A program made the position numbers and the translations under genes. DNA of 64,000 bases. Origin: a virus. Below the pieces are notes generated by a model. That model was not told the DNA's origin. It ran no database searches and was given only the letters and a program-made list of their open reading frames with translations. How positions within the stretch are numbered: position 1 is the first letter of the stretch; every line of letters begins with the position of its first letter. Shown piece by piece: positions 18,301-46,575 of this stretch. The stretch is from UHGV virus genome UHGV-0382128. One strand, given 5' to 3'.

Positions 18301-19506
18301 GTAGGTTTCTTTCGGGTTATACGGGTTAGGCAGCTGAACGAAACGTTTAGACGATTCTGACAGGAACTGATATGCTTTAGAACTTAAGCGGCCCGCTTCA
18401 GCTAAGCGTTGTGCTTCTTGTTTAATAATTTCGTCATGCGGAATGACTTTCTCGACAACAATTGTCGTCGGTTTGACGTCTTCCTTCGGTTCTTCAATAA
18501 CAACGTCTTCTTTTTCATCGAAGGTGTTATCGGATTCGACCACAGCGTCATTAACAACGTCGTCATCATCGACAACATCAACGGTTTCTTCTTCGACGTC
18601 TTTAAGGAAAACACGTTCGTCGCCTTCAGGCGTTAGGAATTCCGCTTCGTACGCATTAGACGGCGCTTGTGTCATTACACGCACTAGCGTACGGTAGAAC
18701 ATCCTGGCCATTTGATCGTCACTTAAACGACCGCCGGAGGACTTACGCATTTTCTCTACAACACCCATGTTCATGGACGTAAAGCCCGTGTTGTGGGTGA
18801 AGATAAAGTTCATTCGTGACAGCTGAGTTAAATCCATTCCCGCGAATAAGGAATCGGATTGTTTTCCATAAGCCCAAGCAAACAACTCCAATAACCACAG
18901 CAAGTTGAAGTCCTGGAACTTCTCAATCTTGCTTTTAACACGGTCGTTATAGGTTGTTTGAAACTTCTGGAACGAGGGTAATGTCGAACCCAGTTCAATA
19001 ACGAAATAGTTCTGACGCATGTATTCTTGCGTGTCGTATTTGAACTGGTTAATCATCAACAGTTGGATGTTACGCAATCTATCGTACCAGGCTAACTGGG
19101 TATCAGGATAGTAGTAGTGCGATAGCATCGGCGTGTAGTTCTCGATCAGGAGAACTTTTAAGTCTTTGCGAACCAGTTCGTCTGAGGTAAGACGACGCAT
19201 CGGGCGGTTTGCACGGTGGTAGGCAAAGATAGCACGTTCTTGCCCCTGAACAGGTTTGTTGCGCGGATGTCCGCTAATACCGTCTTCCGGTAATTTAAAG
19301 TGGTGACGAACCTGTGCAGGTTTTTCTAACGGTTGAATAATCTCGAGTGTTGCAGGCGGCGCTAACACCACCTGGTCGAGATCAATGACATGGAGTACAG
19401 AACCTCGCGGTATCTGTAGCTTCTCGAGCGGGATAATCCTCGGATTACCAAACTCGTCGGTTTTACGCACCGAGAAGCGTTGGTTAAACTGTTTAATGAG
19501 CAGCAT
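15340..19506 (-). CDS. Multisubunit RNA polymerase beta-like subunit, N-terminal fragment (1388 aa)
   Basis: Near residues ~940-1045: GGTGGRNRKTMVYHTREFQPSDIGIVSGNTVDNGDVGI and TTPYR, resembling the bacterial beta region [36 protein letters not shown]...ETPYR. Protein ends before the beta C-terminal GDKxxxRHGNKG region, and lies 10 nt downstream of the beta-prime-like gene. Confidence 0.55.
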   Translation of the reverse strand: MLLIKQFNQRFSVRKTDEFGNPRIIPLEKLQIPRGSVLHVIDLDQVVLAPPATLEIIQPLEKPAQVRHHFKLPEDGISGHPRNKPVQGQERAIFAYHRANRPMRRLTSDELVRKDLKVLLIENYTPMLSHYYYPDTQLAWYDRLRNIQLLMINQFKYDTQEYMRQNYFVIELGSTLPSFQKFQTTYNDRVKSKIEKFQDFNLLWLLELFAWAYGKQSDSLFAGMDLTQLSRMNFIFTHNTGFTSMNMGVVEKMRKSSGGRLSDDQMARMFYRTLVRVMTQAPSNAYEAEFLTPEGDERVFLKDVEEETVDVVDDDDVVNDAVVESDNTFDEKEDVVIEEPKEDVKPTTIVVEKVIPHDEIIKQEAQRLAEAGRLSSKAYQFLSESSKRFVQLPNPYNPKETYGEALTVHEKDVVVKAEPKKVQRLVTDEGWAENVTDQMMKQYNQTMMTKDVLAAVASSQRLGLAIHNHTVEKEVSVTGTIEHHTLRVQPVGGEPTTVRFSIPGLTEDGTWVANGVEYTMRRQRVDLPIRKVAPDTVALTTAYGKNFVRRSDKVANDYGRWLTNAIITRAVDPTNTEVTDARLANVFDPTQHLPRQYTEIARRIASFNANGYMWNFDYKEAVNFFNDEQLRDADAAKLLPVAKRPRSETILAMDDKSMLYGVNGNKVEPVGTIAEVLGFNNQKVPREMTELSLMGKSLSLGFIFSFYLGLQGMLKHFGIQYELVPAGQRVDKNAYDSIIRLQDCKLLVTCDNDQQKMILHGLDRYLKHLVAYTESEADREDIYLNLLRDADGLTPRYINELKQMRSAFVDDMHARILRKMGEPETFIGLLERSNELLQTDHSLPEINGDEMMFLGNQRIAYHIYTAMVRAMRNYNNAPGSNRKFELTQDMVWGAINSDPSVLLAPGANPIQSIKEKDVITMGGTGGRNRKTMVYHTREFQPSDIGIVSGNTVDNGDVGITAFVTNNPRFDTVDGTTFKREEKTPKPSDTLSFIDGLVPDTLMDDAKRQNFVGIQLGSATSCIGATTTPYRTEQEKFVAHRTSVKHARVIDKAGKITGLSKDHIEITYEDGSKEAFPLGRWFGPHEGTFYPHTLVTRWKAGDKLPAGAVITYNEQHFEPDIYDPTQVSWKNGVLATVALLEAEEVIEDSNAISERFAKKMVGQVTKLKEVTINSNQMLLEIVNEGDHVDVDTILCTFTDDLTGDMSAFSQEAAATLQSLSSYAPRAGVRGIVDKIEVVYHGETEDMTPSLAELVRKYDRIRRKAALAVGRGDPVSGSVNGDYRVEGVPLAFNSLCVRFFITHDVEMAAADKMVIANQLKTTVQEVMYGDNKTEDGDDLDVLFGRDSVDARIVGSIQRIGTANAVGEQAGILIGRILDGEAVPDLPATLK

Positions 19507-19515
19507 TGCTTAGCC

Positions 19516-21135
19516 TTATGGGTTCTTTAATAACGCTTGCGTTGCACGTTTAATCACGTTGTTGATAGGATTGATTTTAAAGTTCCCATCAGAATCGAAC
19601 CAGTAGTTTTTCGAGTGTATCCAGTTCCGGTTTTCCTCGAGCGCTTCCTGGGACATAGGCGCGTTAAACGACCCGGTATCGCCATCGTAGTCACCCCCTA
19701 ACCCACCTAGGCGTGAAGGGTGTGGTGCCATAGACTCAACGAAGGTAGGAACCGACCGGTCAGGGTAGCTGATAGCCCCTCGGGGTTTTTCAGTTTCCCA
19801 GTCATCTTCCAGTTCTTTTAAATATAAAGATGACGTGGTGGTCTCCAATCTTATGGTCGATGAATACGTCGAGCCTCGGCCTGTAACGGGATAACGTGTA
19901 ACGAAACCGAAATAATCGTTCCAAAGTTCGTAGCCCGACAAATAAAGCAATTCGACGAGTGTCATACCGTGAACGAATTTTCGGTCAAACGTTTTAGGAA
20001 GTTCTTCAATATCGTAGAACACCTTAAAATGTTTGGTGTCTTGGTAAACCAACGCAACGTAGTGGGTGTCGTCCAACATAATCGGTTGATGGCGAAGCTC
20101 GCGAGCTTCCATTCGGTTGATTAAGGATTCAATCCCATCGTCGGTGGTAAAGGTGTCGTATACACGACCACCTACTTCCAAGAATTCACGTTTAAGGGTT
20201 TTGGTGTTTACGCCGTAAAGGTTGCCATCGCCAGCACGGATGTTACCGAGGTAACGTTCGCGTATCTGGTACTGCGCAACGGGGAGTAATGCTTTTAAAC
20301 CCTGGTATAAACCAATTTTGGTGTCGGTGGGACGAATAGCGTCTTCACGACCCATGCATTTAGACCCCGTCGAGAACGAGGACAGTACGTTACGTGTCCC
20401 GTTCATTAACTTACGAGACGTCACTTTACGACGTTGGAAACCCCCTTTACCGTCCTGGATGTTAAAGAAATACATCCAGATATCATTGAAGGTTTGTTGA
20501 AGTTTCCAGCGTACGGGGTTAGTTAACTCGACACGGGTTGCCCGGTCAGGGATCGCCCTGGCGAGAGATACCAACCGACGATACATCCCGCCGATTTCTT
20601 CTTCTTGCTCTCTACCATCTTGTCGAATTACTAAATCGCGTAAACCCGCGGGTAACACGAGAACGTATCGACTAAGACTAACGGGACGGAATTTCAAAAA
20701 GAAATCCACGGTTTCGTCACGTTGTAGAGACTCGTTACGCTTAGGTTTTAAATCGTTATAGTGACTGAGGAAGAAGTTAAAACCGGTATCTGCGCCTGGG
20801 TCTCCCGGCAAGGCCGGTTCGAAATCTTTTTCTTTTTCGCTCCAGGTTGCGTAGCGTTTTCCAGAACAAATTTCTTCGTAGAGTTGTTTGAGTTGGAATA
20901 ACGCCAAACACACTGTCGGCGAAATGATATCGAGCTTAATATCGATATAAGAGAATGTAGAGTCTCGCGCTTCACTACCCGTGAGTCCAAAAATCTCTGT
21001 AGAGTAAAGACCTTCGGGGTGAAAGTTTTTTGTTAACCCCTGGAAAGTATCCGTGGTCGTGACGGGTCGTAATCGCGACACAAGAGACTTGTTTACATTG
21101 AGCAGATAAAAGTCAACCCAATTAAGTTTATTCAC
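19516..21135 (-). CDS. Multisubunit RNA polymerase beta-prime-like subunit, N-terminal fragment (539 aa)
   Basis: GKGGFQRRKVTSRKLMNGTRNV resembles beta-prime [22 protein letters not shown]; C-terminal GGDYDGDTGS matches the NADFDGD Mg-binding motif; ORF ends ~50 aa after it. Confidence 0.65.
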   Translation of the reverse strand: MNKLNWVDFYLLNVNKSLVSRLRPVTTTDTFQGLTKNFHPEGLYSTEIFGLTGSEARDSTFSYIDIKLDIISPTVCLALFQLKQLYEEICSGKRYATWSEKEKDFEPALPGDPGADTGFNFFLSHYNDLKPKRNESLQRDETVDFFLKFRPVSLSRYVLVLPAGLRDLVIRQDGREQEEEIGGMYRRLVSLARAIPDRATRVELTNPVRWKLQQTFNDIWMYFFNIQDGKGGFQRRKVTSRKLMNGTRNVLSSFSTGSKCMGREDAIRPTDTKIGLYQGLKALLPVAQYQIRERYLGNIRAGDGNLYGVNTKTLKREFLEVGGRVYDTFTTDDGIESLINRMEARELRHQPIMLDDTHYVALVYQDTKHFKVFYDIEELPKTFDRKFVHGMTLVELLYLSGYELWNDYFGFVTRYPVTGRGSTYSSTIRLETTTSSLYLKELEDDWETEKPRGAISYPDRSVPTFVESMAPHPSRLGGLGGDYDGDTGSFNAPMSQEALEENRNWIHSKNYWFDSDGNFKINPINNVIKRATQALLKNP

Positions 21136-21164
21136 GCTAAATCTCCTGATACGGATTAAACGTT

Positions 21165-24100
21165 ATGGCTAAAAAAGGTAAAGATGATTTCGATGAAATC
21201 GATCTTGATAACATGGACGACTGGGACGATTTTGATGAGCCCCCTCGTCAACAAGACCAATCGCGTAACCCGGTCATGGACACATTTCGTGCTGCCCGTA
21301 AGTCGGCGTTGTCGACTATCTGGCCCGAAAACAAACGTGATCAGGTTATTTTAAAAGGGATGCCCAAACCTGCGGCAGAAGCCTACGAAGGCTATCAAAA
21401 CGTTAAAGCTGCAGGTCAAGACATTCTGGCCCATACGAAAGACGAGATTGAAAAGACGTCTCGCGTCGTTAAGATGCAAGCGAGACAGTTAGGCCCAACA
21501 CTGAAACGGTATTTACCAGAATCCGTAACACGGAAAATCGACAAGTGGGCACGTAACGATCAAATCGACTATGGGAATTACGATCCTAAACAAGCGTTGA
21601 TGGATCGTGAGCTGGACAGCGTGTTCTCAGGTGCACCGCAAACGGCGGACCAGCAACGCGAAACGCAAGAAGGGATGGTTGAAGACCGCTTGCGTGACAC
21701 GATTAAGGACATGAAGTCCGACGCACTGTTCCAGACAGTAATCGGTATTGCAAAAGACGTCAACTTAACGACTAGCTTAAGTCGTGGCGTGTTGTTGAAT
21801 GTTCAGCGTAAGCAGTTAGAGCTACAATATCGGACATTGTTTGCTTTGCAGGATATTGCGAAACTCAAACAAGATGAGTTTGCACGCAATACACCGGCAT
21901 TAGAAGCTATCGTTAAGAACACAGCACTGCCAGACTACGCGAAGGAAGAGTTTTCTGAAGTTCGTTGGGCTAATGTAAAACGTAAAGCTGCGGAGTGGAT
22001 GAACCCCTTACGCTACGCAGACAATTTCGTTGATCAAATTCGTGAAAATGCGAAGAAGAAAATATCGAACATCTTTAGTGACGGCCGTGGAATTCTAGAA
22101 CAAGTTCTAGGGATGGCTCAGGAAGATGACTTTGGCATGTCGGACAGCTCATCGTTGTCCCCTGACCGTCGTAACACAAACTCGCGTAATAAAGCGGCAG
22201 GTTTTGCAGGTGGTTGGTTAGCAAAACGGTTCTTACAACCCCAGATCGAGCGTCTCCAAAACTGGACTCGTGGCGAGTTAGAGAAAAATCCAGAAGTAAT
22301 GAAGCGGTTGGAAAAGCTGAATTACATCGTTAGTAATAAATCGTCACTTTCTAACTCAGCTATTGCGGGGGAGTCGAGCGGATGGTTAGCCGACTTTTTC
22401 CGCCTGTTGAACGACGTGGGATTGGTTAACCCGCTACGTCGCGAAACGTTAGCATTAGACGATCGCTCTGCGGAATCTCTTTCTGCGGCGGCGAAATTCG
22501 ATCGTAAAGCTTACCTCAGCATCACCGAAGTTATTCCGACATTACTGTCCGAGATTAACAAATCTATTCGTCGGGGATATGGTGAACACCACGATCAGGT
22601 TTATGACCTGACCACGCGCGGTATGGTGGATCGTAAAGTTATTGGTAATCGTGTTCGTAAAGCGGTCGCTAATGACGATCAGCGTAAACGTTTACAGACT
22701 TACATCAACGACACTGTTGACTTTATCGATAAAGATAAAACGCTCGATAATAAAACACGTCAAGCATTAGCGGACTACATCGAATCTCGTGCCTCAGAAG
22801 GGAAAGCGTTCGACGTAGGGTCTTTATTGAAAGACCCGATGCACATGTATCGGTACATGAACGCAAACGCTGTGGAAGCGATTCAGGGTGTTTTAGAAGC
22901 CCGTTCTGCGGAACTGGTTGGTGGGCACCATGAACTGAGCAACGCGATTTCAAACAAAATCGCCGCTATCCAGTCAACGATTCGCGCACGTCAGGACACT
23001 GTTGATGCTGCGTCTGTGATTTACGGCGAGAATGCACTTCGTGATTCCGGTATTTTTAAATACGATGCGAAGAATGACATTTTCGAGGTCGATAAGGACA
23101 TTAACGATCCCTATACGTTATTTAATGACCTGTCGATGGGTAAGACCCGCTCTGGACGTTCGTTAACCCGTGAGCAAGAGATTCAGCGTAAGTTGCAAAA
23201 CGGTTCTGCGTTGGGTGATTACTTGCGTCGGATGGGTGCAGGCGCGGAGACGAGCTTTGAAGACAAAGAACTGTCCAATGTACGTGGCGGTGGAAAAGGA
23301 GGTCGTGGTCGCGGTTTAAGCGCACGCCAACTCGCTGCGGTACTTTATGGAGAGAAATCCACTAACTTTGTTGAACTATTAAGCAGTCGTCCAGACACGA
23401 ACGCCGGGTTGGAGCATCAATTCGACCGTTTGATTGATGCTGTACGTAAACAGCCCGAATCTAGCACAGTGCAAGATATCCTCAAACACGTTAAGAACAT
23501 GGATGAGGAAGGTATTCTCCTAGCCAGTTTAGGCGGTAGTCGTGATGACGGTGACGAATCTGAAAGTTCGAGTGACTCGGGTCGTAAACGTCGTCGTAAA
23601 CGCAAACGTATTGTGCTAGGCGAGACAGGATTGTTACGCCGTTGGGCTGGGGTGCTTTGGGATACCGGTTCAGGTGTAGGGCGGTTTGGTAAGAATCTGT
23701 TCCTACGTGGGAAAGATCGTCTGCAGGCTTTAGGTGGTTTTATCCGTGGGAAATTCTCAGGCGGATCCTCCGAAGGACCCGGTGTATTTAGCCGACTGAA
23801 AGGGCTAGTAACAGGTACTCTATCGACAGGTTGGAATTCTGCTGTAGCTTTCGGTAAAGGCGTTTTAGGCGTTCGTGATATTTACGATGAGCGTGGCAAC
23901 GTCGTATTACAAGGAAGTCGTTTAGAAGCTGGGGAATATTACCAGGCTGACCCGAAAACTGAGAAGCTGATTCAACTTAAAACCCTCGACGATATTAAAC
24001 TGGGACGTGATATTGTCGATGAAGCGGGTAATTTAATCTTAGCTGCTGCTGATTTGGCTGCCGCAGGTAAACTGCGCTTCTACAAAGGTGGTAAAGTTCA

Positions 24101-27100
24101 AGCGCTTTTCCAGTACATTTCTGGGAAAGCAGGAACGGCGGTAAACAAAGCTGTGACTTTACCGAAGAAACTTCTGGGCTTCATTTCACCTAAAGCGGCT
24201 TCGTTGTTCGAGAAAGCACGTGAGTGGTTAAATGAGGTTCCAGAGGGCGCAGAGAAAACCCGTTTACAAAGTATGATTTCCCGTGTAACGGGAATGCCAG
24301 CACGTTTGTGGAACAATGCAAAACGCGGGTTTGAGAAGCTCAAAGAGTTGGCTTCTGATAACCCTCTGACACGTTGGTGGCAGAACCGTAAGGAAGGTGG
24401 TTCTGGTGGTGGGTTTAGTGTGTTCTCATGGTCGAACGGCCGTAAAACTAACCACATCTTAATCCGTATCTACAAACTCCTTAACCGGAGATTGCCAGGT
24501 GAACCAGAAGATGATACCTGGACAGAACAGATGGAACGGAATACGGGAGCCAGCTCAGTTAAAGGATTATTCCAACGTGCTAAAGACATACGTGATGGGT
24601 TCCGTGAACATTTTCAGGGGTTCCGGGATTGGCGTGGTCGGATGCGTGACAGAATGTCCCGTTATCGCAGTGCGGTAGGTGGTCGTCTTTCTCGTTGGGG
24701 CGGTGCCGCACGTGGTTGGTTTGATCGTTTCCGTGGCCATGCAAGCGATATGGTCGATACTTTCCGAGACCCACGTTACGATATCGGCACACGTTATCGA
24801 ATGGAGAGTCGTTTAGCAGGACGCGATGACGATGTTGCTGAGTTTTATCGTCAGCACATCTACGCAAGAGGCAAGGTGTCTAAAACACGTATCATCGATG
24901 CGGCAAAAGAAGACTTAGACACCGTAACGGATAGCGCTGGACGTGTGATTAATAAAGGGAAACAGAAAGCCCGTAGCGTTGGGTCAGCTTTACTGGAACG
25001 CCTGAACCGAATGGTTAATCTTCAGGAAATGTCATGGTTTAACACCATGCGTGATTCTGCGGAAAAAGCAGGTGCTTCGGAAGGTTTGTTAAGAACTATG
25101 TTCAGTAAGTTCGGCCAACGCAATAAGCCGCCTGCCAGTGATGAAAAACGCGATTACTTCCAGTTCTTCCGACGCCGTCGGCGTTCTAAGGAAGAGGAAA
25201 AGGCTAAGAAAGAGGCTGGGAAGAAAGGTGGTAAACGTGGGGTAATGGATTTCCTTAAAGGATTGCCGTTGGTAGGACCAATCGTGAGTATTTTAGGCAC
25301 AGTGGGTTCAATCTTAGGTAAACTTGCAAAATGGGGAATCTTCAAGCCGGTTGGATTTGCAGGCAAAGCGTTGTGGAACGTTGGTAAGTTTGCCGTGACC
25401 CGTTTGGCTGTCCCTGCGGTTAGTGCTGTCGCGACAGCTGCATCTGCAGTGGTAACTGCGGTTGGCTGGCCGATTATCGGTTTGGTAGCCGCTGGCGCAG
25501 GGTTAACGTGGTTTTATTATAAAACTAAAGATCGTGTAAATGCCCAGTATCTGGATAACATGCGATTGGCACAGTACGGTTTTAGAGACCACGATGAATG
25601 GTCTTCCGACGACGGTGCAAAAGCACGTTATTTAGAAGACAACTTGAAACCGTATATCTCTTATACAGAGAACGGTCAAGCGCAGCTGCGTGGTTTGTCC
25701 GGTGACGATGTGAAGAAACTGGCCGAAGGGTTTGGTACTAACGTAGAAGACAAAGGCGAAATGCTGGCGTTTAGTGCGTTTATGCTACAACGTTTTGTGC
25801 CTATTTACTTACGTTGGATTACGGCACTGAAATCGATGGATAATGATATCGCGTTAGCTGACGTCGGTAATCCAGCAAAAGTGTCGAAAGCAGACATGTT
25901 GAACATCTTTAACAAAATGAAGATGTCGAAAGACGCACCTGCATTCCGTGCATTAGAAGACCCCCGCAAGGTTAATCAAGGTTGGTTCTCTAAAGCGTGG
26001 GATTTCGTAACGTTTACCCCGGCCGAGTTTTTGTCAGGTGAAGAAGTCGTTGAAGCACAAGAACGCGTGCTTCGTTCGATTAACATGCGTCGTGATGAAA
26101 AACGTAAGGATGTAAATGCTACGGGCAGCGTGGCCGAAGGACACAAAGTTGCTTCTGTGGCGGAATCGTCCCAAGCGTTGGCTCAAGCGGATGCGGAACG
26201 CAACAAAGAGGTTGCAAAGGTTGAAGGTTGGGAAGACGGCACCGAACAAGTTCAGGTTCAAGTTGACTGGAGAAGCTTACCTAAAGAAACCGATCTCCGT
26301 GATTTGGAATCTGTAAGGTTGAAAGCTTATGGTGCTGTGAGCATTACTCAAACAACCCGTAACCTCTATACGCTCCTAGAACGTCAAGTGTTGCAAGACA
26401 CTGATGTGAAAAGTTGTACGTATAAAGGAGACTGGAAACGTGCGATTGCAGTGATTGCACCTGACGCTATTGGTGGACCAAAAGAAGATCGGTACAAGAA
26501 CTGGTTCTACAACCGCTTCTTACCTGTCTTCATGACGTACGTGGTTGGGGTGAAACGTTATGTCCCTGCTGCCGATCCGATGGACCTACGCGTTACAGGC
26601 GGGTTCTTGTATGAAATCGCACTGATGATGCGTGGTGCGTACAACCTGAAAGGGGGTATTCGCCAATCGGTGTGGGAGGTACCGTTTAACCCGTTAGGGG
26701 GTGATGCTAACACTGACGCTGGTTCAGTTGCGACGGAGTTAGAGAATCTGAAAGAACTGTCTAAGGAAGCTGATTTGGCAGTACGTAAAACGCTGCGTGC
26801 TACGCCTTCTGCTGGTTTCCGTGTGAACTGGCAGCGAAAAGATCGTGCGACTCAGATGTTCTTGACCGATGACGAGAAGGACCAACCACCTCGGCAACAG
26901 ATGAATACTTCCTCCTCTTATCGCGATCTGCTTCAACCGGCAGCGAATGACGGTGGGAATTACGGCACGCCAAACGATTTGGCTGGTGCTTATGGTCAGA
27001 TGGGGGCTAAGAATTACGCCGCGTTTAGTACCGGTAACTTCGGTGTGAAGCTTGGCGAGATGCAAGACGGTGATTATAAAACGTTAGCGGCTAAGTATCC

Positions 27101-28289
27101 AATTTCAACGTTGGGTGACGGATTGAAGCCTAACCTGAATGCGGTCGCAGCACTGATTATAGACGTAGCGAAGATGATGGGTGTTCCTCCAGCGTTAGCG
27201 CTGGGAATGGCACAAGCAGAATCAGGACTTAGATACGGCATCAAAGCTAAAGGAAGTTCTGCAGCTGGCTTGTTCCAGTTCATCAACGGTACCTGGAGTG
27301 AGCAGATGAAAGCTTACGCTAGACGTTACGGTATCCCGCAAACCGACCAGTATGACCCGTGGGCGAATGCCCTGCTTGGTGTCCGCCATATTCGTGACAA
27401 TATCGAGAAAGCCAGAAAGGATTTAGGTGGCATCGATCCTCCCGGTGCAGCAGTTTACCTCTACCACTTCTTAGGACAAGGTGGCGGTAAGAAATTCCTG
27501 CAAGAATGGAAGCGTGATCCGAACGGTCCGTCATCGCGTGGTGCATCGGCCGATCAAATCGCGGCAAACAGCACAATTTTCTACAAGAATGGAAAATTGC
27601 GTAGTTTGGATGAAGTGCTCAGCATCATGGGTGGTAAGATTGGTGCAGTAGGAACAAACGCAATTGCGGGCAATCAGGCATCGGTGAAAGACTTGACGAC
27701 TGGCGTAACGCCAATGCCGTCATCCCCAGCCATCGCTGCGGGCGCTGCTAACGATCCGTCCATCACAGGCCCGGCAGATAACCTGCCAGCTGCGAACGAG
27801 GCGAATCGTGACACAGCCTTAGCAGATAAAGGTGCAATGGGGGCCGATGACATTAAAGCTGCGACGGGCGGTGGTCCGGCGGTGCCGAGCCCCGGCGGCG
27901 ACGTTACACCGAGTGATGCGTCAGTTGTTGTAGATACGGTGGGTCAAAATGCTCGTGCTGACGGCCTGGCCGAAGAGGATGTTGCTAAAGTAAAAGAAGG
28001 TGCTAGACAGCAGATGGAGAAATCAGTCCGCCCTGCACCAACAGTAACTTCCGATGCACAGACTGGTTCTACAGTGAACAGCGGTGATCCGATCAGTGTA
28101 CAACAGCTGGCGGTTGCAAAAGAGTCTGCGGGCTACCTGAAAGAGATTGTAACAATTCTTCGTCAGCGGCCACAGGCTATGCAAAACGGACCGGCTAACC
28201 CTGCGTCAACCGCTCCGGGTTCGGCGTCACGTAACGTGTCAATAACCCAACCCACGCCACAACTCGACGTTAGTCGTAAATCGGCGTAA
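21165..28289 (+). CDS. Giant virion-associated protein (2374 aa) with C-terminal lytic transglycosylase (SLT) domain
   Basis: SLT signature GMAQAESGLRYG...SSAAGLFQFINGTW at about nt 27180-27300; polybasic GRKRRRKRKR; long hydrophobic segment (about 25250-25520); acidic N-terminus. Confidence 0.8.
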   Translation: MAKKGKDDFDEIDLDNMDDWDDFDEPPRQQDQSRNPVMDTFRAARKSALSTIWPENKRDQVILKGMPKPAAEAYEGYQNVKAAGQDILAHTKDEIEKTSRVVKMQARQLGPTLKRYLPESVTRKIDKWARNDQIDYGNYDPKQALMDRELDSVFSGAPQTADQQRETQEGMVEDRLRDTIKDMKSDALFQTVIGIAKDVNLTTSLSRGVLLNVQRKQLELQYRTLFALQDIAKLKQDEFARNTPALEAIVKNTALPDYAKEEFSEVRWANVKRKAAEWMNPLRYADNFVDQIRENAKKKISNIFSDGRGILEQVLGMAQEDDFGMSDSSSLSPDRRNTNSRNKAAGFAGGWLAKRFLQPQIERLQNWTRGELEKNPEVMKRLEKLNYIVSNKSSLSNSAIAGESSGWLADFFRLLNDVGLVNPLRRETLALDDRSAESLSAAAKFDRKAYLSITEVIPTLLSEINKSIRRGYGEHHDQVYDLTTRGMVDRKVIGNRVRKAVANDDQRKRLQTYINDTVDFIDKDKTLDNKTRQALADYIESRASEGKAFDVGSLLKDPMHMYRYMNANAVEAIQGVLEARSAELVGGHHELSNAISNKIAAIQSTIRARQDTVDAASVIYGENALRDSGIFKYDAKNDIFEVDKDINDPYTLFNDLSMGKTRSGRSLTREQEIQRKLQNGSALGDYLRRMGAGAETSFEDKELSNVRGGGKGGRGRGLSARQLAAVLYGEKSTNFVELLSSRPDTNAGLEHQFDRLIDAVRKQPESSTVQDILKHVKNMDEEGILLASLGGSRDDGDESESSSDSGRKRRRKRKRIVLGETGLLRRWAGVLWDTGSGVGRFGKNLFLRGKDRLQALGGFIRGKFSGGSSEGPGVFSRLKGLVTGTLSTGWNSAVAFGKGVLGVRDIYDERGNVVLQGSRLEAGEYYQADPKTEKLIQLKTLDDIKLGRDIVDEAGNLILAAADLAAAGKLRFYKGGKVQALFQYISGKAGTAVNKAVTLPKKLLGFISPKAASLFEKAREWLNEVPEGAEKTRLQSMISRVTGMPARLWNNAKRGFEKLKELASDNPLTRWWQNRKEGGSGGGFSVFSWSNGRKTNHILIRIYKLLNRRLPGEPEDDTWTEQMERNTGASSVKGLFQRAKDIRDGFREHFQGFRDWRGRMRDRMSRYRSAVGGRLSRWGGAARGWFDRFRGHASDMVDTFRDPRYDIGTRYRMESRLAGRDDDVAEFYRQHIYARGKVSKTRIIDAAKEDLDTVTDSAGRVINKGKQKARSVGSALLERLNRMVNLQEMSWFNTMRDSAEKAGASEGLLRTMFSKFGQRNKPPASDEKRDYFQFFRRRRRSKEEEKAKKEAGKKGGKRGVMDFLKGLPLVGPIVSILGTVGSILGKLAKWGIFKPVGFAGKALWNVGKFAVTRLAVPAVSAVATAASAVVTAVGWPIIGLVAAGAGLTWFYYKTKDRVNAQYLDNMRLAQYGFRDHDEWSSDDGAKARYLEDNLKPYISYTENGQAQLRGLSGDDVKKLAEGFGTNVEDKGEMLAFSAFMLQRFVPIYLRWITALKSMDNDIALADVGNPAKVSKADMLNIFNKMKMSKDAPAFRALEDPRKVNQGWFSKAWDFVTFTPAEFLSGEEVVEAQERVLRSINMRRDEKRKDVNATGSVAEGHKVASVAESSQALAQADAERNKEVAKVEGWEDGTEQVQVQVDWRSLPKETDLRDLESVRLKAYGAVSITQTTRNLYTLLERQVLQDTDVKSCTYKGDWKRAIAVIAPDAIGGPKEDRYKNWFYNRFLPVFMTYVVGVKRYVPAADPMDLRVTGGFLYEIALMMRGAYNLKGGIRQSVWEVPFNPLGGDANTDAGSVATELENLKELSKEADLAVRKTLRATPSAGFRVNWQRKDRATQMFLTDDEKDQPPRQQMNTSSSYRDLLQPAANDGGNYGTPNDLAGAYGQMGAKNYAAFSTGNFGVKLGEMQDGDYKTLAAKYPISTLGDGLKPNLNAVAALIIDVAKMMGVPPALALGMAQAESGLRYGIKAKGSSAAGLFQFINGTWSEQMKAYARRYGIPQTDQYDPWANALLGVRHIRDNIEKARKDLGGIDPPGAAVYLYHFLGQGGGKKFLQEWKRDPNGPSSRGASADQIAANSTIFYKNGKLRSLDEVLSIMGGKIGAVGTNAIAGNQASVKDLTTGVTPMPSSPAIAAGAANDPSITGPADNLPAANEANRDTALADKGAMGADDIKAATGGGPAVPSPGGDVTPSDASVVVDTVGQNARADGLAEEDVAKVKEGARQQMEKSVRPAPTVTSDAQTGSTVNSGDPISVQQLAVAKESAGYLKEIVTILRQRPQAMQNGPANPASTAPGSASRNVSITQPTPQLDVSRKSA

Positions 28290-28335: not shown

Positions 28336-30507
28336 GTGGACGCTAGATCAGCTAACGACTCAAGCTGGGTCAGAAATCTATTTAAGGGAGAGTTGGAAGG
28401 CCGAGATGAACGTTTTCTGGCCTTGCGACGCTACTCTAACGGTATGATGTCTTTTGAAGATACGACCATGGGCGGTAGTAAAGCGATTAATAGCCCTCCG
28501 CAGTTTACCTGGTTTGCAGACCCCCCATCAACTGGGGCATTTGCACGACCCGGTAATCGTGAGGCGGAGAAAAAGGCGTTGGCTAACGGTATGCCAACCG
28601 CTTCTTATCGCTTAGGGACGTATTATTACGAAAGTATTAACCAAAATTCGTTTTACGTACATTGCCGTTTCGGCAAGCCTAAATATCTGGGCATGGCCGC
28701 GTTCTTTGCGAATATGTACGATTCCAACTTAGCATATTTAGCGCGTACGGGTGACTATCCGGGAATGATCCGTACGATAGCAAGTTATATCGGCGCAGCA
28801 GCGATATGGGCAACTGTGGGTACTGTCGCTTTTGCGGTAATTTTAATTACTCCTCGCATTCTCGCGGCAGCGTTGAATAAGCAAACGTCGCGTTATTATT
28901 ACGTTAAACCGACGATGCATCTGTATTTGCGTGCTGTACAGAACATCTTGAATACGCAACTTGTTTATCGTCGTTTGGTTCCTACGGGTATCTTAGGTAC
29001 CTTCCAGGTCAGTCAAGACGGAGATGGAAAAGGGAACAAAAAAGCACGCGATGAAGCTTTTGAAGCGTTACCGGAGGTTTGGAAAAAGGGCGGTGAATTC
29101 GATGTCTTTAAGATGATCAACCGTTATCAAACTTTGGCGAACTATCAGAATCAACGTTTAAAAGAGCTTCGTAAGCAGTCCTCAAGTGACGACGAACTCG
29201 CCGAGCGGATACGAAATTTCTATTTGGATAGCACGTATGGTGCAGCTTCGTATTCTGACGATGTGAGAAATTACGAAGTTTCTTTGCAAGACATGGAACG
29301 GTTAGCCGCTTCCGAGCGCGGTGGTTATGCGGCGAAAGACGCGTCGGGTAAAGATATTAACAGCGTTGATGAACTGGAGAAAGGGGTTCTCGATGCGTTT
29401 AGTTCCGGGTTACAAACTGGGGGAACGGCAAGCGACCTAGAGGCGCAGGCGGCAGAAATCCAAAACAAAATGAATGAGGATTTGGAAAATGCCGATGCGA
29501 GTAACCTCACCGAGGGACAACAGAATACGATACAGTCCTGGGCGGATAAAGGTAAAGAATCAACCATGGAGACGTTCTTCGGCGACTTTGTTAAAGTGGT
29601 TGGCGAACAGATTGAAGGGATTAAAGCACAGGCTCTGTCCGAAATCTACAACGGTTCTCAGTGGGTGACCTGGAGAATCGATGGGAAGGACACCGTCTCT
29701 CGTTCGTTCTCTAACTCCACAAAAGAGCCGGAGATTTCTAGTACAGTTAACTCAATGACGGCGAAAGCTCGTCAACTTGAAGTAAACTTGTCTGGCGGGC
29801 AAACCGGCTTCAACGCGGTCGATTCATTAATTACAGGCTTTAAGTCCGTAATGCGTGGGTTAGCAGATACGCTGCATTTAACGGGGATTATGTCGTTATA
29901 TAACTCATCCGTCATCGACTTCCCAGAGGTGTGGGACAGTTCAGATGCCTCGGGTGACGATATTAACTTGACAATACCTTTACGTGCGTGGTCGGGAAGT
30001 GACCTGGATATCTTCCAGGAGATTCTAGTGCCGCTGTCCTTTTGGATCGCCGCAGTATGTCCAATTGCGACGGGTAAACAATCATTCACACATCCGTTTT
30101 ATTTGGAATGTTACTCACAAGGCCGATTCTCGTTCCGTAATGCTATCGTGACTTCTTTGTCTTTACAATTCGGTGTTGGTGGTTTAGGTTGGCGGCCAGG
30201 CGATTCTGTTCCATTGTCTTGTGATATCAATGTTACCATCCGCGATTTGTCCCGTGTGATGTATATGCCCATCGTTACAGACACTGGTGTTTGGGACGAC
30301 GATAATAAATTCAGTGAGTTTATGGCGTGTTTGGGTGCAGCGACGTTGTACGAGCGTACGAACGGTATAGAGCGTGCCAAGATCCAGGGAAGCATTTGGG
30401 CGCAGAACTGGGCATCTGCATGGTCACAAGGCAGCTTTATCAACTCTGCGTTTGATGTGCTTCCAGCACGCCAGATCGCGAACATCTTCTTGCCGCAAGC
30501 ACGTTAA
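28336..30507 (+). CDS. Hypothetical protein (723 aa) with one hydrophobic segment; probably virion-associated
   Basis: ORF directly downstream of the giant gene; hydrophobic stretch IGAAAIWATVGTVAFAVILITP. Confidence 0.5.
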   Translation: MDARSANDSSWVRNLFKGELEGRDERFLALRRYSNGMMSFEDTTMGGSKAINSPPQFTWFADPPSTGAFARPGNREAEKKALANGMPTASYRLGTYYYESINQNSFYVHCRFGKPKYLGMAAFFANMYDSNLAYLARTGDYPGMIRTIASYIGAAAIWATVGTVAFAVILITPRILAAALNKQTSRYYYVKPTMHLYLRAVQNILNTQLVYRRLVPTGILGTFQVSQDGDGKGNKKARDEAFEALPEVWKKGGEFDVFKMINRYQTLANYQNQRLKELRKQSSSDDELAERIRNFYLDSTYGAASYSDDVRNYEVSLQDMERLAASERGGYAAKDASGKDINSVDELEKGVLDAFSSGLQTGGTASDLEAQAAEIQNKMNEDLENADASNLTEGQQNTIQSWADKGKESTMETFFGDFVKVVGEQIEGIKAQALSEIYNGSQWVTWRIDGKDTVSRSFSNSTKEPEISSTVNSMTAKARQLEVNLSGGQTGFNAVDSLITGFKSVMRGLADTLHLTGIMSLYNSSVIDFPEVWDSSDASGDDINLTIPLRAWSGSDLDIFQEILVPLSFWIAAVCPIATGKQSFTHPFYLECYSQGRFSFRNAIVTSLSLQFGVGGLGWRPGDSVPLSCDINVTIRDLSRVMYMPIVTDTGVWDDDNKFSEFMACLGAATLYERTNGIERAKIQGSIWAQNWASAWSQGSFINSAFDVLPARQIANIFLPQAR

Positions 30508-30523: not shown

Positions 30524-31087
30524 ATGGCTAATACGCTATTAGGTAAATCAGGAAAACAGCTGGTTTATGAGTTATTAGTAAAAAAGAATCCAGGTTTGGT
30601 AGAGAAAGGTATTACAATCGATAAGTTGAATTTTGGCACACCGGCACTTATCCCTGCGGTAGAAACACCAGAAACTCAATTTACGCGATTAAATACCCAA
30701 CTTAGCGTCCAGGGAATTATTGAACAGAAAACGTTTGGTAAAATTGACGTTATTTATCGTCGATTGGATTTAGAGCACCTCTTAGGTGACTTTGTAGTTT
30801 CTGTTGCGGGTATCAATGCGGCTACGGTATCTGAGGTACTACAGCTTTTTCGCACTAAGTACAATTTGCAGATTACCGACGATGAAGTTGAGAACCCAAC
30901 AGCTGCACCAGACAGCAAAGATAAAACCATCATTATCATGAATGGGAGATCTTTGGCGTGGACGGGGCGGTTGGAGGTGTACTTGACAGAGCTACCGTCC
31001 GACGGTAAGGATATTTCGAAGTTGATTAAAGTCACCGAACTTGACGGTTTAACGTATATCTCTTCTGGGATTGTTCCTGGCGCTTAA
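30524..31087 (+). CDS. Hypothetical protein (187 aa)
   Basis: ORF followed immediately by a strong terminator. Confidence 0.5.
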   Translation: MANTLLGKSGKQLVYELLVKKNPGLVEKGITIDKLNFGTPALIPAVETPETQFTRLNTQLSVQGIIEQKTFGKIDVIYRRLDLEHLLGDFVVSVAGINAATVSEVLQLFRTKYNLQITDDEVENPTAAPDSKDKTIIIMNGRSLAWTGRLEVYLTELPSDGKDISKLIKVTELDGLTYISSGIVPGA

Positions 31088-45605: not shown

Positions 45606-45655
45606 AAAAGTAAAGCTACCCCTAGACCACACGGTCTAGGGGTAAACTATTTATT
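45606..45655. terminator. Bidirectional rho-independent terminator
   Basis: Stem cccctagacc / ggtctagggg (45619-45642) flanked by A-run and T-rich tract; between convergent genes. Confidence 0.75.
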
Positions 45656-46550: not shown

Positions 46551-46575
46551 TTTAATGCTCCTAAACACTTTTAGC

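What the first reader, a model, noticed from the sequence alone, without database searches (positions are those of the whole stretch)
21165..28289. 2374-aa giant protein with C-terminal lytic transglycosylase domain, polybasic tract and hydrophobic core
One ORF of 7.1 kb, i.e. 11% of the window. It has an acidic N-terminus, a GRKRRRKRKR tract (about 23580-23615), a ~90-aa hydrophobic Gly/Ala/Val-rich region (about 25250-25520) and an SLT module (AQAESG...AGLFQF...TW, about 27100-27560). This architecture fits a virion-borne cell-wall-degrading ejection or tape-measure-like protein (cf. phiKZ gp181). The long low-complexity regions between the modules are unexplained.
Basis: partly seen in the sequence, partly recalled or inferred. 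Interest (0 to 1): 0.65.

Follow-up and report, generated by a model that had tools for sequence, protein, structure and literature searches.

The report
Giant tail lysin of jumbo phage
This 2374-residue gene is a jumbo phage's version of the known phiKZ gp181 / SPN3US gp239 giant tail protein, which carries a cell-wall-cutting enzyme and a membrane-inserting segment; it is a real but ordinary member of a family whose exact role in infection is still unsettled.

Summary

The protein is a full-length, colinear orthologue of the giant tail protein of phiKZ-like (Chimalliviridae) jumbo phages. It shares about 59% identity over 100% of its length with the SPN3US/Asesino type (SPN3US gp239, called "tail tape measure protein" and detected in tails by mass spectrometry). 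It also matches phiKZ-type gp181, a tested structural peptidoglycan hydrolase, at about 21-25% identity. Synteny is the same: divergent from the two virion RNA-polymerase β genes, and followed by the gp182 baseplate "spacer ring" homologue.

The SLT domain is a gp144-type lytic transglycosylase with the catalytic Glu (E2019) conserved.

The regions between the modules are mostly not low-complexity. They comprise a conserved helical N-terminal region, a length-variable and strongly basic middle region, a near-universal hydrophobic cluster, and a conserved 410-aa domain with no detectable structural relative.

The "tape measure" label is unproven. No tape-measure profile matches, the protein is about twice as long as a ruler needs to be, and its length does not track the tube lengths of phiKZ and Goslar.

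Verdict: new member of a known kind, modest interest.

The parts
21165..28289 (+). Whole gene: 2374-aa (262 kDa, pI 9.4) giant tail protein, orthologue of phiKZ gp181 / SPN3US gp239
   Evidence: ORF; PHROG 3201 E=0; 59% identity over 100% of the length to the Asesino, Proteus phage 7 and SPN3US-like proteins; mass and pI
21165..21263 (+). Acidic N-terminal tip (aa 1-33): family-wide motif MAKK..DDFDLD..DWDDFDEPP..RNP
   Evidence: Alignment slice. Net charge is -2 to -15 (mean -8.6) in all 79 aligned members. AF2 pLDDT below 40, so probably disordered on its own
21264..23234 (+). Conserved N-terminal helical region (aa 34-690), the hallmark of the family; confidently folded core at aa ~340-690
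   Evidence: Length 650 +/- 6 aa across the family; conservation; AF2 pLDDT 80-90 for aa 340-690; no PDB fold match, best E = 1.6. In the exhaustive search, 598 cluster representatives reach E <= 1e-10, nearly always at residues 1 to ~600 of proteins of 2000-2700 aa
23565..25238 (+). Variable, strongly basic middle region (aa 801-1358; net charge +50, pI 10.6), mostly helical; the segment that carries nearly all of the family's length variation
   Evidence: The wider aa 650-to-TM segment spans 503-906 aa, CV 0.155, while other segments are nearly fixed. Net charge is +8 to +85 (mean +47) in every member. Secondary structure
23580..23609 (+). Polybasic tract GRKRRRKRKR (aa 806-815), preceded by an acidic Ser/Asp/Glu-rich stretch
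   Evidence: The long run occurs only in close relatives; the conserved core is RRRRI-x-GE-x-GL-x-RRWGG, and it is absent in the distant Vibrio-phage-type members
23871..24134 (+). Two tandem beta-hairpin repeats (RDIYDxxGNxxL...G.YY), aa ~903-990
   Evidence: Motif hits at aa 905 and 949; beta strands with pLDDT about 70 in AF2; G902, D905, G911, L915, G923 and Y925 are nearly invariant
24435..24494 (+). Conserved cationic amphipathic helix KTNHILIRIYKLLNRRL (aa ~1091-1110), the most conserved element of the middle region
   Evidence: L1099, I1102, L1106 and R1109 are invariant; hydrophobic moment 0.63
25239..25520 (+). Hydrophobic Gly/Ala/Val-rich cluster (aa 1359-1452): 2-3 transmembrane-like segments, preceded by the basic stretch FFRRRRRSKEEEKAKKEAGKKGGKRG. 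The last helix, VGWPIIGLVAAGAGLTWFYYK, is conserved family-wide
   Evidence: KD19 up to 1.88; alignment. 86% of 233 family sequences have a segment with KD19 >= 1.6 at relative position about 0.6. The feature is weak in phiKZ-type gp181, maximum 1.22
25527..26756 (+). Conserved post-TM domain (aa ~1455-1864), mostly helical and confidently predicted, with no detectable sequence-family or structural relative
27135..27659 (+). gp144-type lytic transglycosylase (SLT) domain, aa ~1991-2165. Catalytic Glu E2019 is at nt 27219-27221 in the AQAES motif; Y2098 and H2101 are conserved
27660..28286 (+). Ala/Pro/Gly/Ser-rich C-terminal tail (aa 2166-2374). It ends in a family-wide amphipathic helix (QQLAVAKESAGYLKEIVTILRQ, aa ~2310-2333, nt 28092-28163) and a terminal motif (ITQPTPQLDVSRKSA, nt ~28233-28286); candidate hub-docking end
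   Evidence: Alignment slice; predicted helices. The docking role is inferred from what is known of tape-measure C-termini in contractile tails
28336..30507 (+). Downstream partner gene: 723-aa homologue of phiKZ gp182, the hexameric 'spacer' ring between the tube initiator and the hub
   Evidence: BLASTP to the SL2 gp182 homologue E = 3e-35; PHROG 3181 E = 8e-249; role from the phiKZ atlas PMC13250141; Goslar gp203 occupies the same position

Best explanation
The gene encodes the giant internal tail protein of a phiKZ-like (Chimalliviridae-type) jumbo myophage. It is the orthologue of phiKZ gp181 and SPN3US gp239.

Proposed mechanism:
1. A few copies (probably 3 or 6) are built into the tail during assembly and lie inside the unusually wide tube. 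The conserved C-terminal helix and terminal motif dock at the hub and spacer ring (the spacer ring is encoded by the next gene), and the acidic N-terminus points toward the neck.
2. The long, helical, strongly basic middle region fills or lines the tube, and may help set or stabilise its length.
3. When the sheath contracts and the spike/hub complex is shed, the C-proximal part leaves first.
4. The gp144-type lytic transglycosylase domain (catalytic E2019) cuts glycan strands locally, so that the tube and its cargo can cross the cell wall.
5. The Gly/Ala-rich hydrophobic cluster (aa 1359-1452), flanked by basic residues, inserts into the cytoplasmic membrane to form or anchor the conduit through which DNA and ejected proteins enter.

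Shown here: orthology, synteny, the domain map, conservation of the catalytic residues, and conservation of the charge and hydrophobic pattern.
Taken from the literature on relatives: virion and tail location (SPN3US gp239) and muralytic activity (phiKZ gp181).
Inferred: position in the tube lumen, orientation, order of exit, membrane insertion, and any ruler function.
For: Orthology:
- PHROG 3201, E = 0.
- 59% identity over 100% of the length to the Asesino gp261 / SPN3US-type proteins.
- BLASTP to phiKZ-type gp181: E = 5e-35 and 4e-18.

Synteny is identical in Asesino, SL2 (Phikzvirus) and Goslar: divergent from the vRNAP beta genes, and followed by the gp182/gp203 tube-initiator ring gene.

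Location in relatives: SPN3US gp239 (259 kDa) is in virions and is lost or depleted in tailless particles.

Enzyme:
- Pfam SLT above the cut-off.
- gp144 match, E = 2e-19, with E115 aligned to E2019.
- gp181 muralytic activity is reported.
- Family members swap the lytic module (GH19, VanY, glucosaminidase) while keeping the scaffold, as expected when the requirement is simply 'a wall-cutting module'.

Membrane element: the hydrophobic cluster lies at about 60% of the chain length in 86% of 233 family members.

Tube residency is plausible:
- The protein is predominantly helical.
- The middle region is basic in every member.
- The phiKZ lumen of about 68 A would be only 16-32% filled by 3-6 copies.
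- The spike, spike tip, hub, spacer and tube-initiator positions in phiKZ and Goslar are all assigned to other proteins, and neither structure models this protein. That leaves a disordered or symmetry-mismatched interior location.
Against: - No tape-measure profile (Pfam, NCBIfam) and no tape-measure chain in the PDB matches.
- There is no adjacent chaperone gene pair; the upstream neighbours are RNA-polymerase genes on the other strand.
- At 1.5 A per residue, only about 1080-1200 residues are needed to span the phiKZ and Goslar tubes. The whole chain works out at only 0.73-0.80 A per residue.
- Goslar's tube is about 11% longer than phiKZ's, while the two proteins are essentially the same length, 2252 against 2237 aa.
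- The hydrophobic cluster is weak in phiKZ-type gp181, so membrane insertion may not be universal.
- The TM cluster is predicted with low confidence.
- No structure or experiment locates any family member inside the tube.
- Location and activity data come from relatives at 59% and about 21-25% identity, not from this phage.
Confidence: 0.6

Rival explanations
1. It is a true tape measure. The protein, or its variable middle region, acts as the molecular ruler that fixes tail length, and the lysin and membrane modules are add-ons.
For: It is the largest tail gene, predominantly helical, and next to a tube-initiator/hub ring gene. The SPN3US group calls gp239 the tape measure. Family length is tightly constrained (median 2327 aa, IQR 2242-2446). 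Nearly all length variation is confined to one segment. The pre-TM length of about 1220-1360 aa is of the order needed to span a tube of 1600-1800 A plus the end structures.
Against: No tape-measure profile matches. The protein is about twice the length required. Protein length does not track the phiKZ and Goslar tube lengths. No length-mutant experiment exists for any family member.
Confidence: 0.4
2. It is lumen cargo and an ejection protein, not a ruler. It would be a pre-loaded effector-like protein carried in the wide tube and delivered first, while tail length is set by something else.
For: There is excess length over what a ruler needs, and no scaling between phiKZ and Goslar. The wide 68 A lumen can hold folded domains. 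The protein has several confidently folded globular domains, unlike an extended coiled coil. The enzymatic modules are swappable.
Against: No other tape-measure candidate has been named in either the phiKZ or the Goslar structure. Size is strongly constrained across hundreds of clusters.
Confidence: 0.25
3. It is a tail fibre, as most GenBank records and PHROG 3201 label it.
For: Only the database labels.
Against: The prediction is predominantly alpha-helical with no fibre-like beta-rich or receptor-binding domain. It carries a peptidoglycan-cleaving domain and a transmembrane-like cluster. The tail fibres of phiKZ are assigned to the gp131-gp135 paralogues. The label appears to be inherited annotation.
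Confidence: 0.02
4. It forms the needle-like cell-puncturing device under the baseplate, which was the older view of gp181.
For: A review table lists gp181 as 'needle-like cell-puncturing device, putative trimer'.
Against: The 2026 phiKZ atlas assigns the spike to gp164, the tip to gp163.1 and the hub to gp101. Goslar assigns gp13 and gp48. This protein has no OB-fold or beta-helix spike module.
Confidence: 0.04
5. It is a head-packaged internal ejection protein, analogous to T7 gp16 (transglycosylase plus membrane-spanning channel).
Against: SPN3US gp239 is absent or depleted in tailless, DNA-filled heads. The gene is adjacent to a baseplate ring gene.
Confidence: 0.03

Closest known systems
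SPN3US gp239 and Erwinia phage Asesino gp261 (SPN3US-like and Erskinevirus jumbo phages)
   Same: Full-length colinear homologues, about 59% identity over 100% of the length, with the same size (2373-2381 aa), the same domain order and the same gene neighbourhood. gp239 is a mass-spectrometry-confirmed tail-associated virion protein.
   Different: About 41% sequence divergence. The window's lineage has a longer polybasic run (RKRRRKRKR against RRRR). The phage itself is not in GenBank's phage records and is known only from Logan read-archive assemblies, such as SRR5831601.
phiKZ gp181 (structural peptidoglycan hydrolase, 2237 aa)
   Same: Positional orthologue with the same synteny. Homologous N-terminal region, post-TM domain and SLT domain. 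Muralytic activity of the gp181 catalytic fragment is reported.
   Different: Only about 21-25% identity over the regions BLASTP aligns, which tblastn put at 55% of the query. It is 137 aa shorter, and its hydrophobic cluster is much weaker (KD19 maximum 1.22 against 1.88).
Goslar gp204 (2252 aa)
   Same: Same syntenic slot: after the vRNAP beta genes and before the tube-initiator ring gene gp203. It has a strong hydrophobic cluster at the same relative position, and a comparable acidic N-terminal stretch and C-terminal helix, judged by eye and not formally aligned.
   Different: It carries a GH19-like (COG3179) lysozyme domain in place of the SLT domain. I did not score its similarity to the query directly.
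phiKZ gp144 (endolysin, lytic transglycosylase; PDB 3BKH)
   Different: gp144 is a 260-aa endolysin with an N-terminal peptidoglycan-binding domain, and it also sits in the phiKZ neck as a wedge. Here the domain is embedded at aa 1991-2165 of a 2374-aa scaffold.
Phage T5 Pb2 (multifunctional tape measure), a functional analogue
   Same: From established knowledge: a long helical tail-internal protein with hydrophobic membrane-inserting segments and a C-proximal muralytic module, expelled at infection to open the envelope. This is the same logical architecture as here (Pb2 is listed as muralytic).
   Different: No detectable sequence or profile similarity. Pb2 is less than half the size, belongs to a non-contractile tail, and its enzyme is a peptidase-type module, not a transglycosylase.
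T7 gp16 (internal core protein with a transglycosylase domain), a functional analogue
   Same: A very large ejected protein that combines a lytic transglycosylase with membrane spanning to build the DNA conduit. It gives a weak structural hit on the SLT domain.
   Different: It is packaged in the head and has the SLT domain at the N-terminus. There is no homology outside the catalytic fold, and the relatives of the present protein are tail-associated.

Membership tests
phiKZ gp181 / SPN3US gp239 giant tail protein family (PHROG 3201) | Full-length colinear sequence homology to family members | tested here: met
   PHROG 3201 E = 0. 59% identity over 100% of the length to the Asesino, Proteus phage 7 and SPN3US-like proteins. 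E = 5e-35 and 4e-18 to phiKZ-type gp181
phiKZ gp181 / SPN3US gp239 giant tail protein family (PHROG 3201) | Conserved gene position: divergent from the two vRNAP beta genes, followed by the gp182-type baseplate ring gene | tested here: met
phiKZ gp181 / SPN3US gp239 giant tail protein family (PHROG 3201) | Size of about 2000-2700 aa with the N-terminal hallmark domain at residue 1 | tested here: met
   2374 aa. In the exhaustive search the N-domain lies at residues 1 to ~600 of proteins of 2000-2700 aa in nearly all of the top 150 hits. Median family length is 2327 aa
phiKZ gp181 / SPN3US gp239 giant tail protein family (PHROG 3201) | Physical presence in the virion tail | not testable with these tools
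   Known only for relatives: SPN3US gp239 by mass spectrometry of wild-type and tailless particles
Family-1 lytic transglycosylase (Pfam SLT PF01464), gp144 subgroup | Profile match above the curated threshold | tested here: met
   31 bits against a 21.3-bit cut-off; family profile to gp144 E = 4e-50
Family-1 lytic transglycosylase (Pfam SLT PF01464), gp144 subgroup | Catalytic Glu in the E-S motif, plus the conserved downstream GLFQF and Y-x-x-H-F-x-G motifs | tested here: met
   E2019-S2020 align to gp144 E115-S116, and Y2098 to Y197. E, S, Q, F, Y, H and G are nearly invariant in the family. That E115 is the catalytic residue is from my recollection of Fokine et al. 2008
Family-1 lytic transglycosylase (Pfam SLT PF01464), gp144 subgroup | Lysozyme-like alpha-helical catalytic fold | tested here: met
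Family-1 lytic transglycosylase (Pfam SLT PF01464), gp144 subgroup | Non-hydrolytic cleavage giving 1,6-anhydro-MurNAc products | not testable with these tools
   Needs enzyme assays with muropeptide analysis
Tail tape measure proteins | Membership in a recognised tape-measure sequence family (Pfam or TIGRFAM tape-measure models, or solved tape-measure chains) | tested here: not met
   Pfam reports only SLT; NCBIfam reports nothing; the profile search against the PDB finds only transglycosylases
Tail tape measure proteins | Long, predominantly alpha-helical tail protein encoded next to baseplate hub or tube-initiator genes | tested here: met
   Helical prediction; the downstream gene is the gp182 spacer-ring homologue
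Tail tape measure proteins | Upstream tail-assembly chaperone gene pair with a programmed frameshift | tested here: not met
   The upstream neighbours are the vRNAP beta genes on the opposite strand, 29 bp away. A chaperone elsewhere in the genome was not searched for
Tail tape measure proteins | Protein length proportional to tail length (about 1.5 A per residue) | tested here: inconclusive
   phiKZ gives 1622 A over 2237 aa, or 0.73 A/aa. Goslar gives 1801 A over 2252 aa, or 0.80 A/aa. The protein is about twice the needed length and does not scale between the two. That is only two calibrated points, and a sub-segment could still be the ruler
Tail tape measure proteins | Location in the tube lumen, with the C-terminus at the hub | not testable with these tools
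   Not modelled in the phiKZ or Goslar virion structures. A conserved C-terminal helix and motif exist
Tail fibre (the database label) | Elongated beta-rich or coiled trimeric fibre with a distal receptor-binding domain | tested here: not met
   The prediction is helical and globular with an enzymatic domain and a TM-like cluster, and no fibre or receptor-binding profile matches

The most novel reading that the evidence does not exclude
The giant protein is not primarily a ruler. It would be the phage's envelope-crossing and membrane-remodelling device. After the transglycosylase opens the wall, the near-universal Gly/Ala-rich hydrophobic cluster and the strongly basic region insert into the cytoplasmic membrane. 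There they form a conduit wide enough for the bolus of ejected proteins, and they seed or anchor the membrane-bound early-infection (EPI) vesicle that receives the genome in Chimalliviridae. The origin of that vesicle is explicitly described as unknown in the 2026 Goslar structure paper. My evidence does not exclude this: the protein is unaccounted for in both virion structures, it is the only known tail protein with a conserved TM-like cluster, and the full architecture was found only in phiKZ-like phages among the GenBank hits.
Probability: 0.12. Interest if true: 0.75.

Novelty: new member of a known kind. Interest (0 to 1): 0.3.

Why it matters
As a gene call this is routine: every phiKZ-like jumbo phage has this protein, and the window's copy adds a divergent lineage, about 59% identical to the nearest GenBank phage.

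The family itself is still a gap. It is the largest virion protein of these phages, it is mislabelled "tail fiber" in most records, and it is missing from both 2026 near-complete virion structures (phiKZ and Goslar). Its "tape measure" name rests on analogy only.

The segment map produced here gives concrete handles for experiments on how jumbo phages cross the envelope and deliver DNA and proteins into a membrane vesicle:
- fixed-length N-terminal region, post-TM domain, lysin and C-tail;
- one length-variable basic spacer;
- a near-universal hydrophobic cluster at about 60% of the chain;
- a conserved acidic tip and a conserved C-terminal docking-type motif;
- interchangeable lytic modules.

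Tried and rejected
2. **Fold of the N-terminal half.** There is no significant PDB neighbour (best E = 1.6).
3. **Tape-measure sequence membership.** Pfam, NCBIfam and a family profile against all PDB chains gave nothing beyond the transglycosylase. Weak apolipoprotein-like hits (E about 0.07) on the middle region are compositional and not significant.
4. **Internal repeats.** A self-BLAST found none. Only a short beta-hairpin motif recurs, twice in the query, and its copy number does not explain the family's length variation.
5. **Membrane-surface-binding helices.** The middle region is not clearly enriched in cationic amphipathic helices: only two windows pass the hydrophobic-moment test.
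6. **Simple ruler scaling.** Tested with the two tails that have calibrated tube lengths, phiKZ and Goslar; no scaling was seen.
7. **Near-identity DNA search.** Only fragments of 70-150 bp matched at 76-86%, so the phage is not in the GenBank phage set.
8. **Literature on the vesicle link.** I looked for gp181 in the EPI-vesicle proteomics preprint and the 2026 jumbo-phage review; it is not mentioned.
9. **RNA genes.** Rfam and tRNA scans of the window found nothing.
Full report
**1. The observation**

The window contains one uninterrupted ORF at 21165..28289 on the + strand, with an ATG start and 2374 codons. From the window's base composition, the chance of 2374 stop-free codons is about 1e-56. 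The predicted protein is 262 kDa with pI 9.4.

- The acidic N-terminus.
- GRKRRRKRKR at aa 806-815 (nt 23580-23609).
- A Gly/Ala/Val-rich hydrophobic cluster at aa 1359-1452 (nt 25239-25520).
- The SLT motifs AQAESG (nt 27210-27227), AGLFQF and INGTW.

A frameshift or assembly artefact is excluded. Relatives at 98%, 95%, 86% and 78% identity in read-archive assemblies, and GenBank homologues at about 59%, all align over 100% of the length and have nearly the same size. The exact protein is recorded on one 68-kb Logan contig from run SRR5831601.

**2. What it is**

Neighbouring genes place the window in a phiKZ-like jumbo myophage. They include split virion RNA-polymerase β subunits, a tail sheath, a head maturation protease, MazG and thymidylate synthase.

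The giant protein matches PHROG 3201, a 2408-position model labelled "tail fiber protein", with E = 0. tblastn against 50,697 phage records finds 262 records. Of these, 61 are covered over at least 80% of the query, led by Erwinia phage Asesino gp261, Proteus phage 7 and the SPN3US-like Salmonella phages, at about 59% identity over 100% coverage. The Erwinia Kwan/Huxley types follow at 46%, CR5/EarlPhillipIV at 38%, and the Pseudomonas phiKZ group at about 24% over 55% coverage.

Direct BLASTP to the 2237-aa gp181 homologue of Phikzvirus SL2 gives E = 5e-35 for the region from the post-TM domain through the SLT domain, and E = 4e-18 for the N-terminal region.

Gene order is the same in Asesino, SL2 and Goslar. 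The giant gene diverges from the two vRNAP β genes and is followed by a gene of about 660-720 aa. In the window that downstream gene (28336..30507) is a homologue of phiKZ gp182 (E = 3e-35). The 2026 phiKZ structural atlas shows gp182 to be the hexameric "spacer" ring between the tube initiator gp88 and the hub gp101 (PMC13250141). Goslar's equivalent is gp203, the second layer of the tube initiator.

**3. What is known about relatives**

SPN3US gp239 (259 kDa) is detected in purified virions. It is missing from the tailless particles of one mutant and depleted in another, and its authors call it the tail tape measure protein (PMC5105663, PMC10052503, PMC5694885).

phiKZ gp181 is described as a structural peptidoglycan hydrolase with high specific activity. 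It was formerly placed in a "needle-like cell-puncturing device" (review PMC5380687 citing Briers et al. 2008). That placement is now superseded. The phiKZ atlas assigns the spike to gp164, the tip to gp163.1 and the hub to gp101. The Goslar structure assigns gp13 and gp48.

Neither paper mentions gp181 or gp204, a tape measure, or a transglycosylase in the tail interior. So the location and structure of this family remain unresolved, even after two near-complete virion models.

**4. Anatomy**

I aligned 79 family members and measured conservation, segment lengths and charge. I also predicted the structure in two overlapping 1200-residue halves from 53-sequence alignments. The protein resolves into eight parts:

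(a) *aa 1-33, acidic tip.* The motif MAKK..DDFDLD..DWDDFDEPP..RNP is recognisable even in the Vibrio-phage-type members. Net charge is -2 to -15 in every member.

(b) *aa 34-690, conserved helical region.* Its length is almost invariant at 650 ± 6 aa. It has a confidently predicted core at aa 340-690 (pLDDT 80-90) and no significant structural neighbour in the PDB.

(c) *aa ~691-800, variable acidic stretch,* which runs into the polybasic tract.

(d) *aa 801-1358, basic middle region.* This is the least conserved part. The wider aa 650-to-TM segment that contains it carries nearly all of the family's length variation, 503-906 aa. Yet it is net positive in every member: +8 to +85, mean +47, and +50 with pI 10.6 here. 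It contains two β-hairpin repeats (RDIYDxxGNxxL) and one highly conserved amphipathic helix, KTNHILIRIYKLLNRRL.

(e) *aa 1359-1452, hydrophobic cluster.* It is preceded by FFRRRRRSKEEEKAKKEAGKKGGKRG. The last helix, VGWPIIGLVAAGAGLTWFYYK, is conserved family-wide.

(f) *aa ~1455-1864, post-TM domain.* It is conserved, confidently predicted (pLDDT 80-95) and mostly helical, with no structural relative.

(g) *A variable linker, then the SLT domain at aa ~1991-2165.*

(h) *The C-terminal tail.* It is Ala/Pro/Gly-rich and ends in a conserved amphipathic helix (QQLxVQ…L…I) and a conserved terminal motif (TQPxPxLNVSRK).

The polybasic run itself is a local expansion seen only in close relatives. The conserved core is RRRRI-x-GE-x-GL-x-RRWGG, and it is best read as an extreme of the family-wide basic character of the middle region.

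**5. The enzyme**

- Pfam SLT scores 31 bits against a 21.3-bit cut-off.
- The closest solved relative is phiKZ gp144. phmmer gives E = 2e-19 and the family profile gives E = 4e-50.
- Reading the alignment by hand, E2019-S2020 align with gp144 E115-S116, and Y2098 with Y197. That E115 is gp144's catalytic residue is from my recollection of Fokine et al. 2008.
- These positions are invariant or nearly invariant in the family.

Other family members replace or supplement this module with GH19 (Goslar gp204; P0040-45), VanY or glucosaminidase domains on the same scaffold. This implies that the conserved requirement is simply a wall-cleaving activity.

**6. Family size and constraints**

An exhaustive HMMER search with aa 1-700 against 1.84 billion cluster representatives found 598 proteins at E ≤ 1e-10 and 1210 at E ≤ 1e-3. 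In nearly all of the top 150, the module lies at residues 1 to ~550-650 of a protein of 2000-2700 aa.

Among the 233 collected family sequences the median length is 2327 aa (IQR 2242-2446). In 86% of them a segment with Kyte-Doolittle 19-residue mean ≥ 1.6 lies at relative position about 0.6. The phiKZ-type proteins are the exception, with only a weak Gly/Ala-rich stretch (maximum 1.22).

**7. Is it a tape measure?**

For:
- It is the largest tail-associated protein.
- It is predominantly helical.
- It is encoded next to a tube-initiator ring gene.
- Its size is constrained, with variation confined to one segment.

Against:
- No tape-measure profile or solved tape-measure chain matches.
- There is no adjacent chaperone gene pair.
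- The lengths do not fit a simple ruler. The phiKZ tube is 43 × 37.73 Å = 1622 Å and the Goslar tube is 46 × 39.16 Å = 1801 Å. At 1.5 Å per residue these need about 1080 and 1200 residues. The proteins are 2237 and 2252 aa, which works out at 0.73 and 0.80 Å per residue. The longer tube does not have a correspondingly longer protein.

The pre-TM part (about 1220-1360 aa) is of the right order to span the tube, but that is a loose fit based on two data points. I therefore treat the ruler function as unproven (probability about 0.4).

Residence inside the tube is physically easy. With the reported lumen of about 68 Å, three to six copies would fill only 16-32% of the lumen volume, against 47-93% for a 40 Å lumen.

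**8. Most likely mechanism**

Confidence is about 0.6 for the whole chain of steps and about 0.9 for the identity.
1. The protein is an internal tail protein. Its conserved C-terminal end docks at the hub and spacer ring, and its acidic N-terminus points toward the neck.
2. On contraction and loss of the spike/hub, the C-proximal modules exit first.
3. The transglycosylase opens the peptidoglycan.
4. The hydrophobic cluster and its basic flanks insert into the cytoplasmic membrane to form or anchor the conduit.

The closest functional analogues are T5 Pb2 (a tape measure with membrane-inserting segments and a muralytic module) and T7 gp16 (a transglycosylase plus membrane channel). Neither is a homologue.

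Orthology, synteny, the domain map, and the conservation of residues and physicochemical patterns are shown here. Tail location and activity come from relatives. Orientation, ejection order and membrane insertion are inferred.

**9. Novelty and interest**

It is not surprising to a specialist.

The residual interest lies in the family, not in this copy. It is mislabelled in databases, absent from both recent virion structures and mechanistically untested. It is also a plausible candidate for the unexplained step by which chimalliviruses deliver their genome into a membrane vesicle. That reading is speculative (about 0.12), and the weak hydrophobic region in phiKZ itself counts against it.

Noticed in passing
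window 30524-31087 (+): This 187-aa ORF carries Pfam DUF7941 (E = 7e-23). The 2026 Goslar preprint reports this chimallivirus-specific family as very abundant virion proteins (gp22 and gp23, hundreds to thousands of copies) and refers to 'DUF7941 fibers'. Here it lies directly downstream of the gp182-type ring gene.
   Followed up: partly
window 28336-30507 (+): This 723-aa ORF is a homologue of phiKZ gp182 and occupies the slot of Goslar gp203, the second ring of the tube initiator ('spacer') between tube and hub. PHROG 3181 still labels it 'unknown function'.
   Followed up: yes
window 15340-21135 (-) and 21136-21164: The two vRNAP beta-type genes (1388 aa and 539 aa) are contiguous, and no Rfam family is found anywhere in the window. 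Goslar, by contrast, has an annotated group I intron and an extra ORF between the corresponding genes. The divergent intergenic spacer to the giant gene is only 29 bp.
   Followed up: partly
window 45651-46646 (-) and 46576-47502 (-): Two adjacent ORFs (331 and 308 aa) both match PHROG 6160 (unknown function) and overlap by 71 nt as called from the first possible start codon. They look like tandem paralogues, and the true start of the downstream gene (45651-46646, - strand) is probably further in.
   Followed up: no
family-wide (P0040-P0045, P0089-P0118; L005 418-7176): Members of the giant-protein family exchange the lytic module: SLT, GH19 (PF00182; COG3179 in Goslar gp204), VanY (PF02557) or glucosaminidase (PF01832). 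Some carry an added PF13884 domain, and some are much larger, up to 4026 aa.
   Followed up: partly
L005 418-7176 (Goslar gp204): The annotated start of Goslar gp204 (VKLRFNIINAEG...) lies about 30 codons upstream of an in-frame Met. That Met precedes the acidic N-terminal motif (MVDKTRVEGDDNWDNWDEDF...), so the deposited start is probably too early.
   Followed up: no
literature, PDB 9xps / PMC13250141: phiKZ gp144, known as the endolysin, is also a structural component of the virion neck: six copies wedge between the whisker, terminator and sheath. These phages therefore carry two related transglycosylase domains in the particle.
   Followed up: no
window 1-64000: The phage is absent from GenBank phage records at the DNA level; only fragments of 70-150 bp match, at 76-86%. 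Proteins 98% identical recur in other Logan assemblies, and one cluster has 58 member sequences, so this is a repeatedly sampled but uncultured or undeposited lineage.
   Followed up: partly
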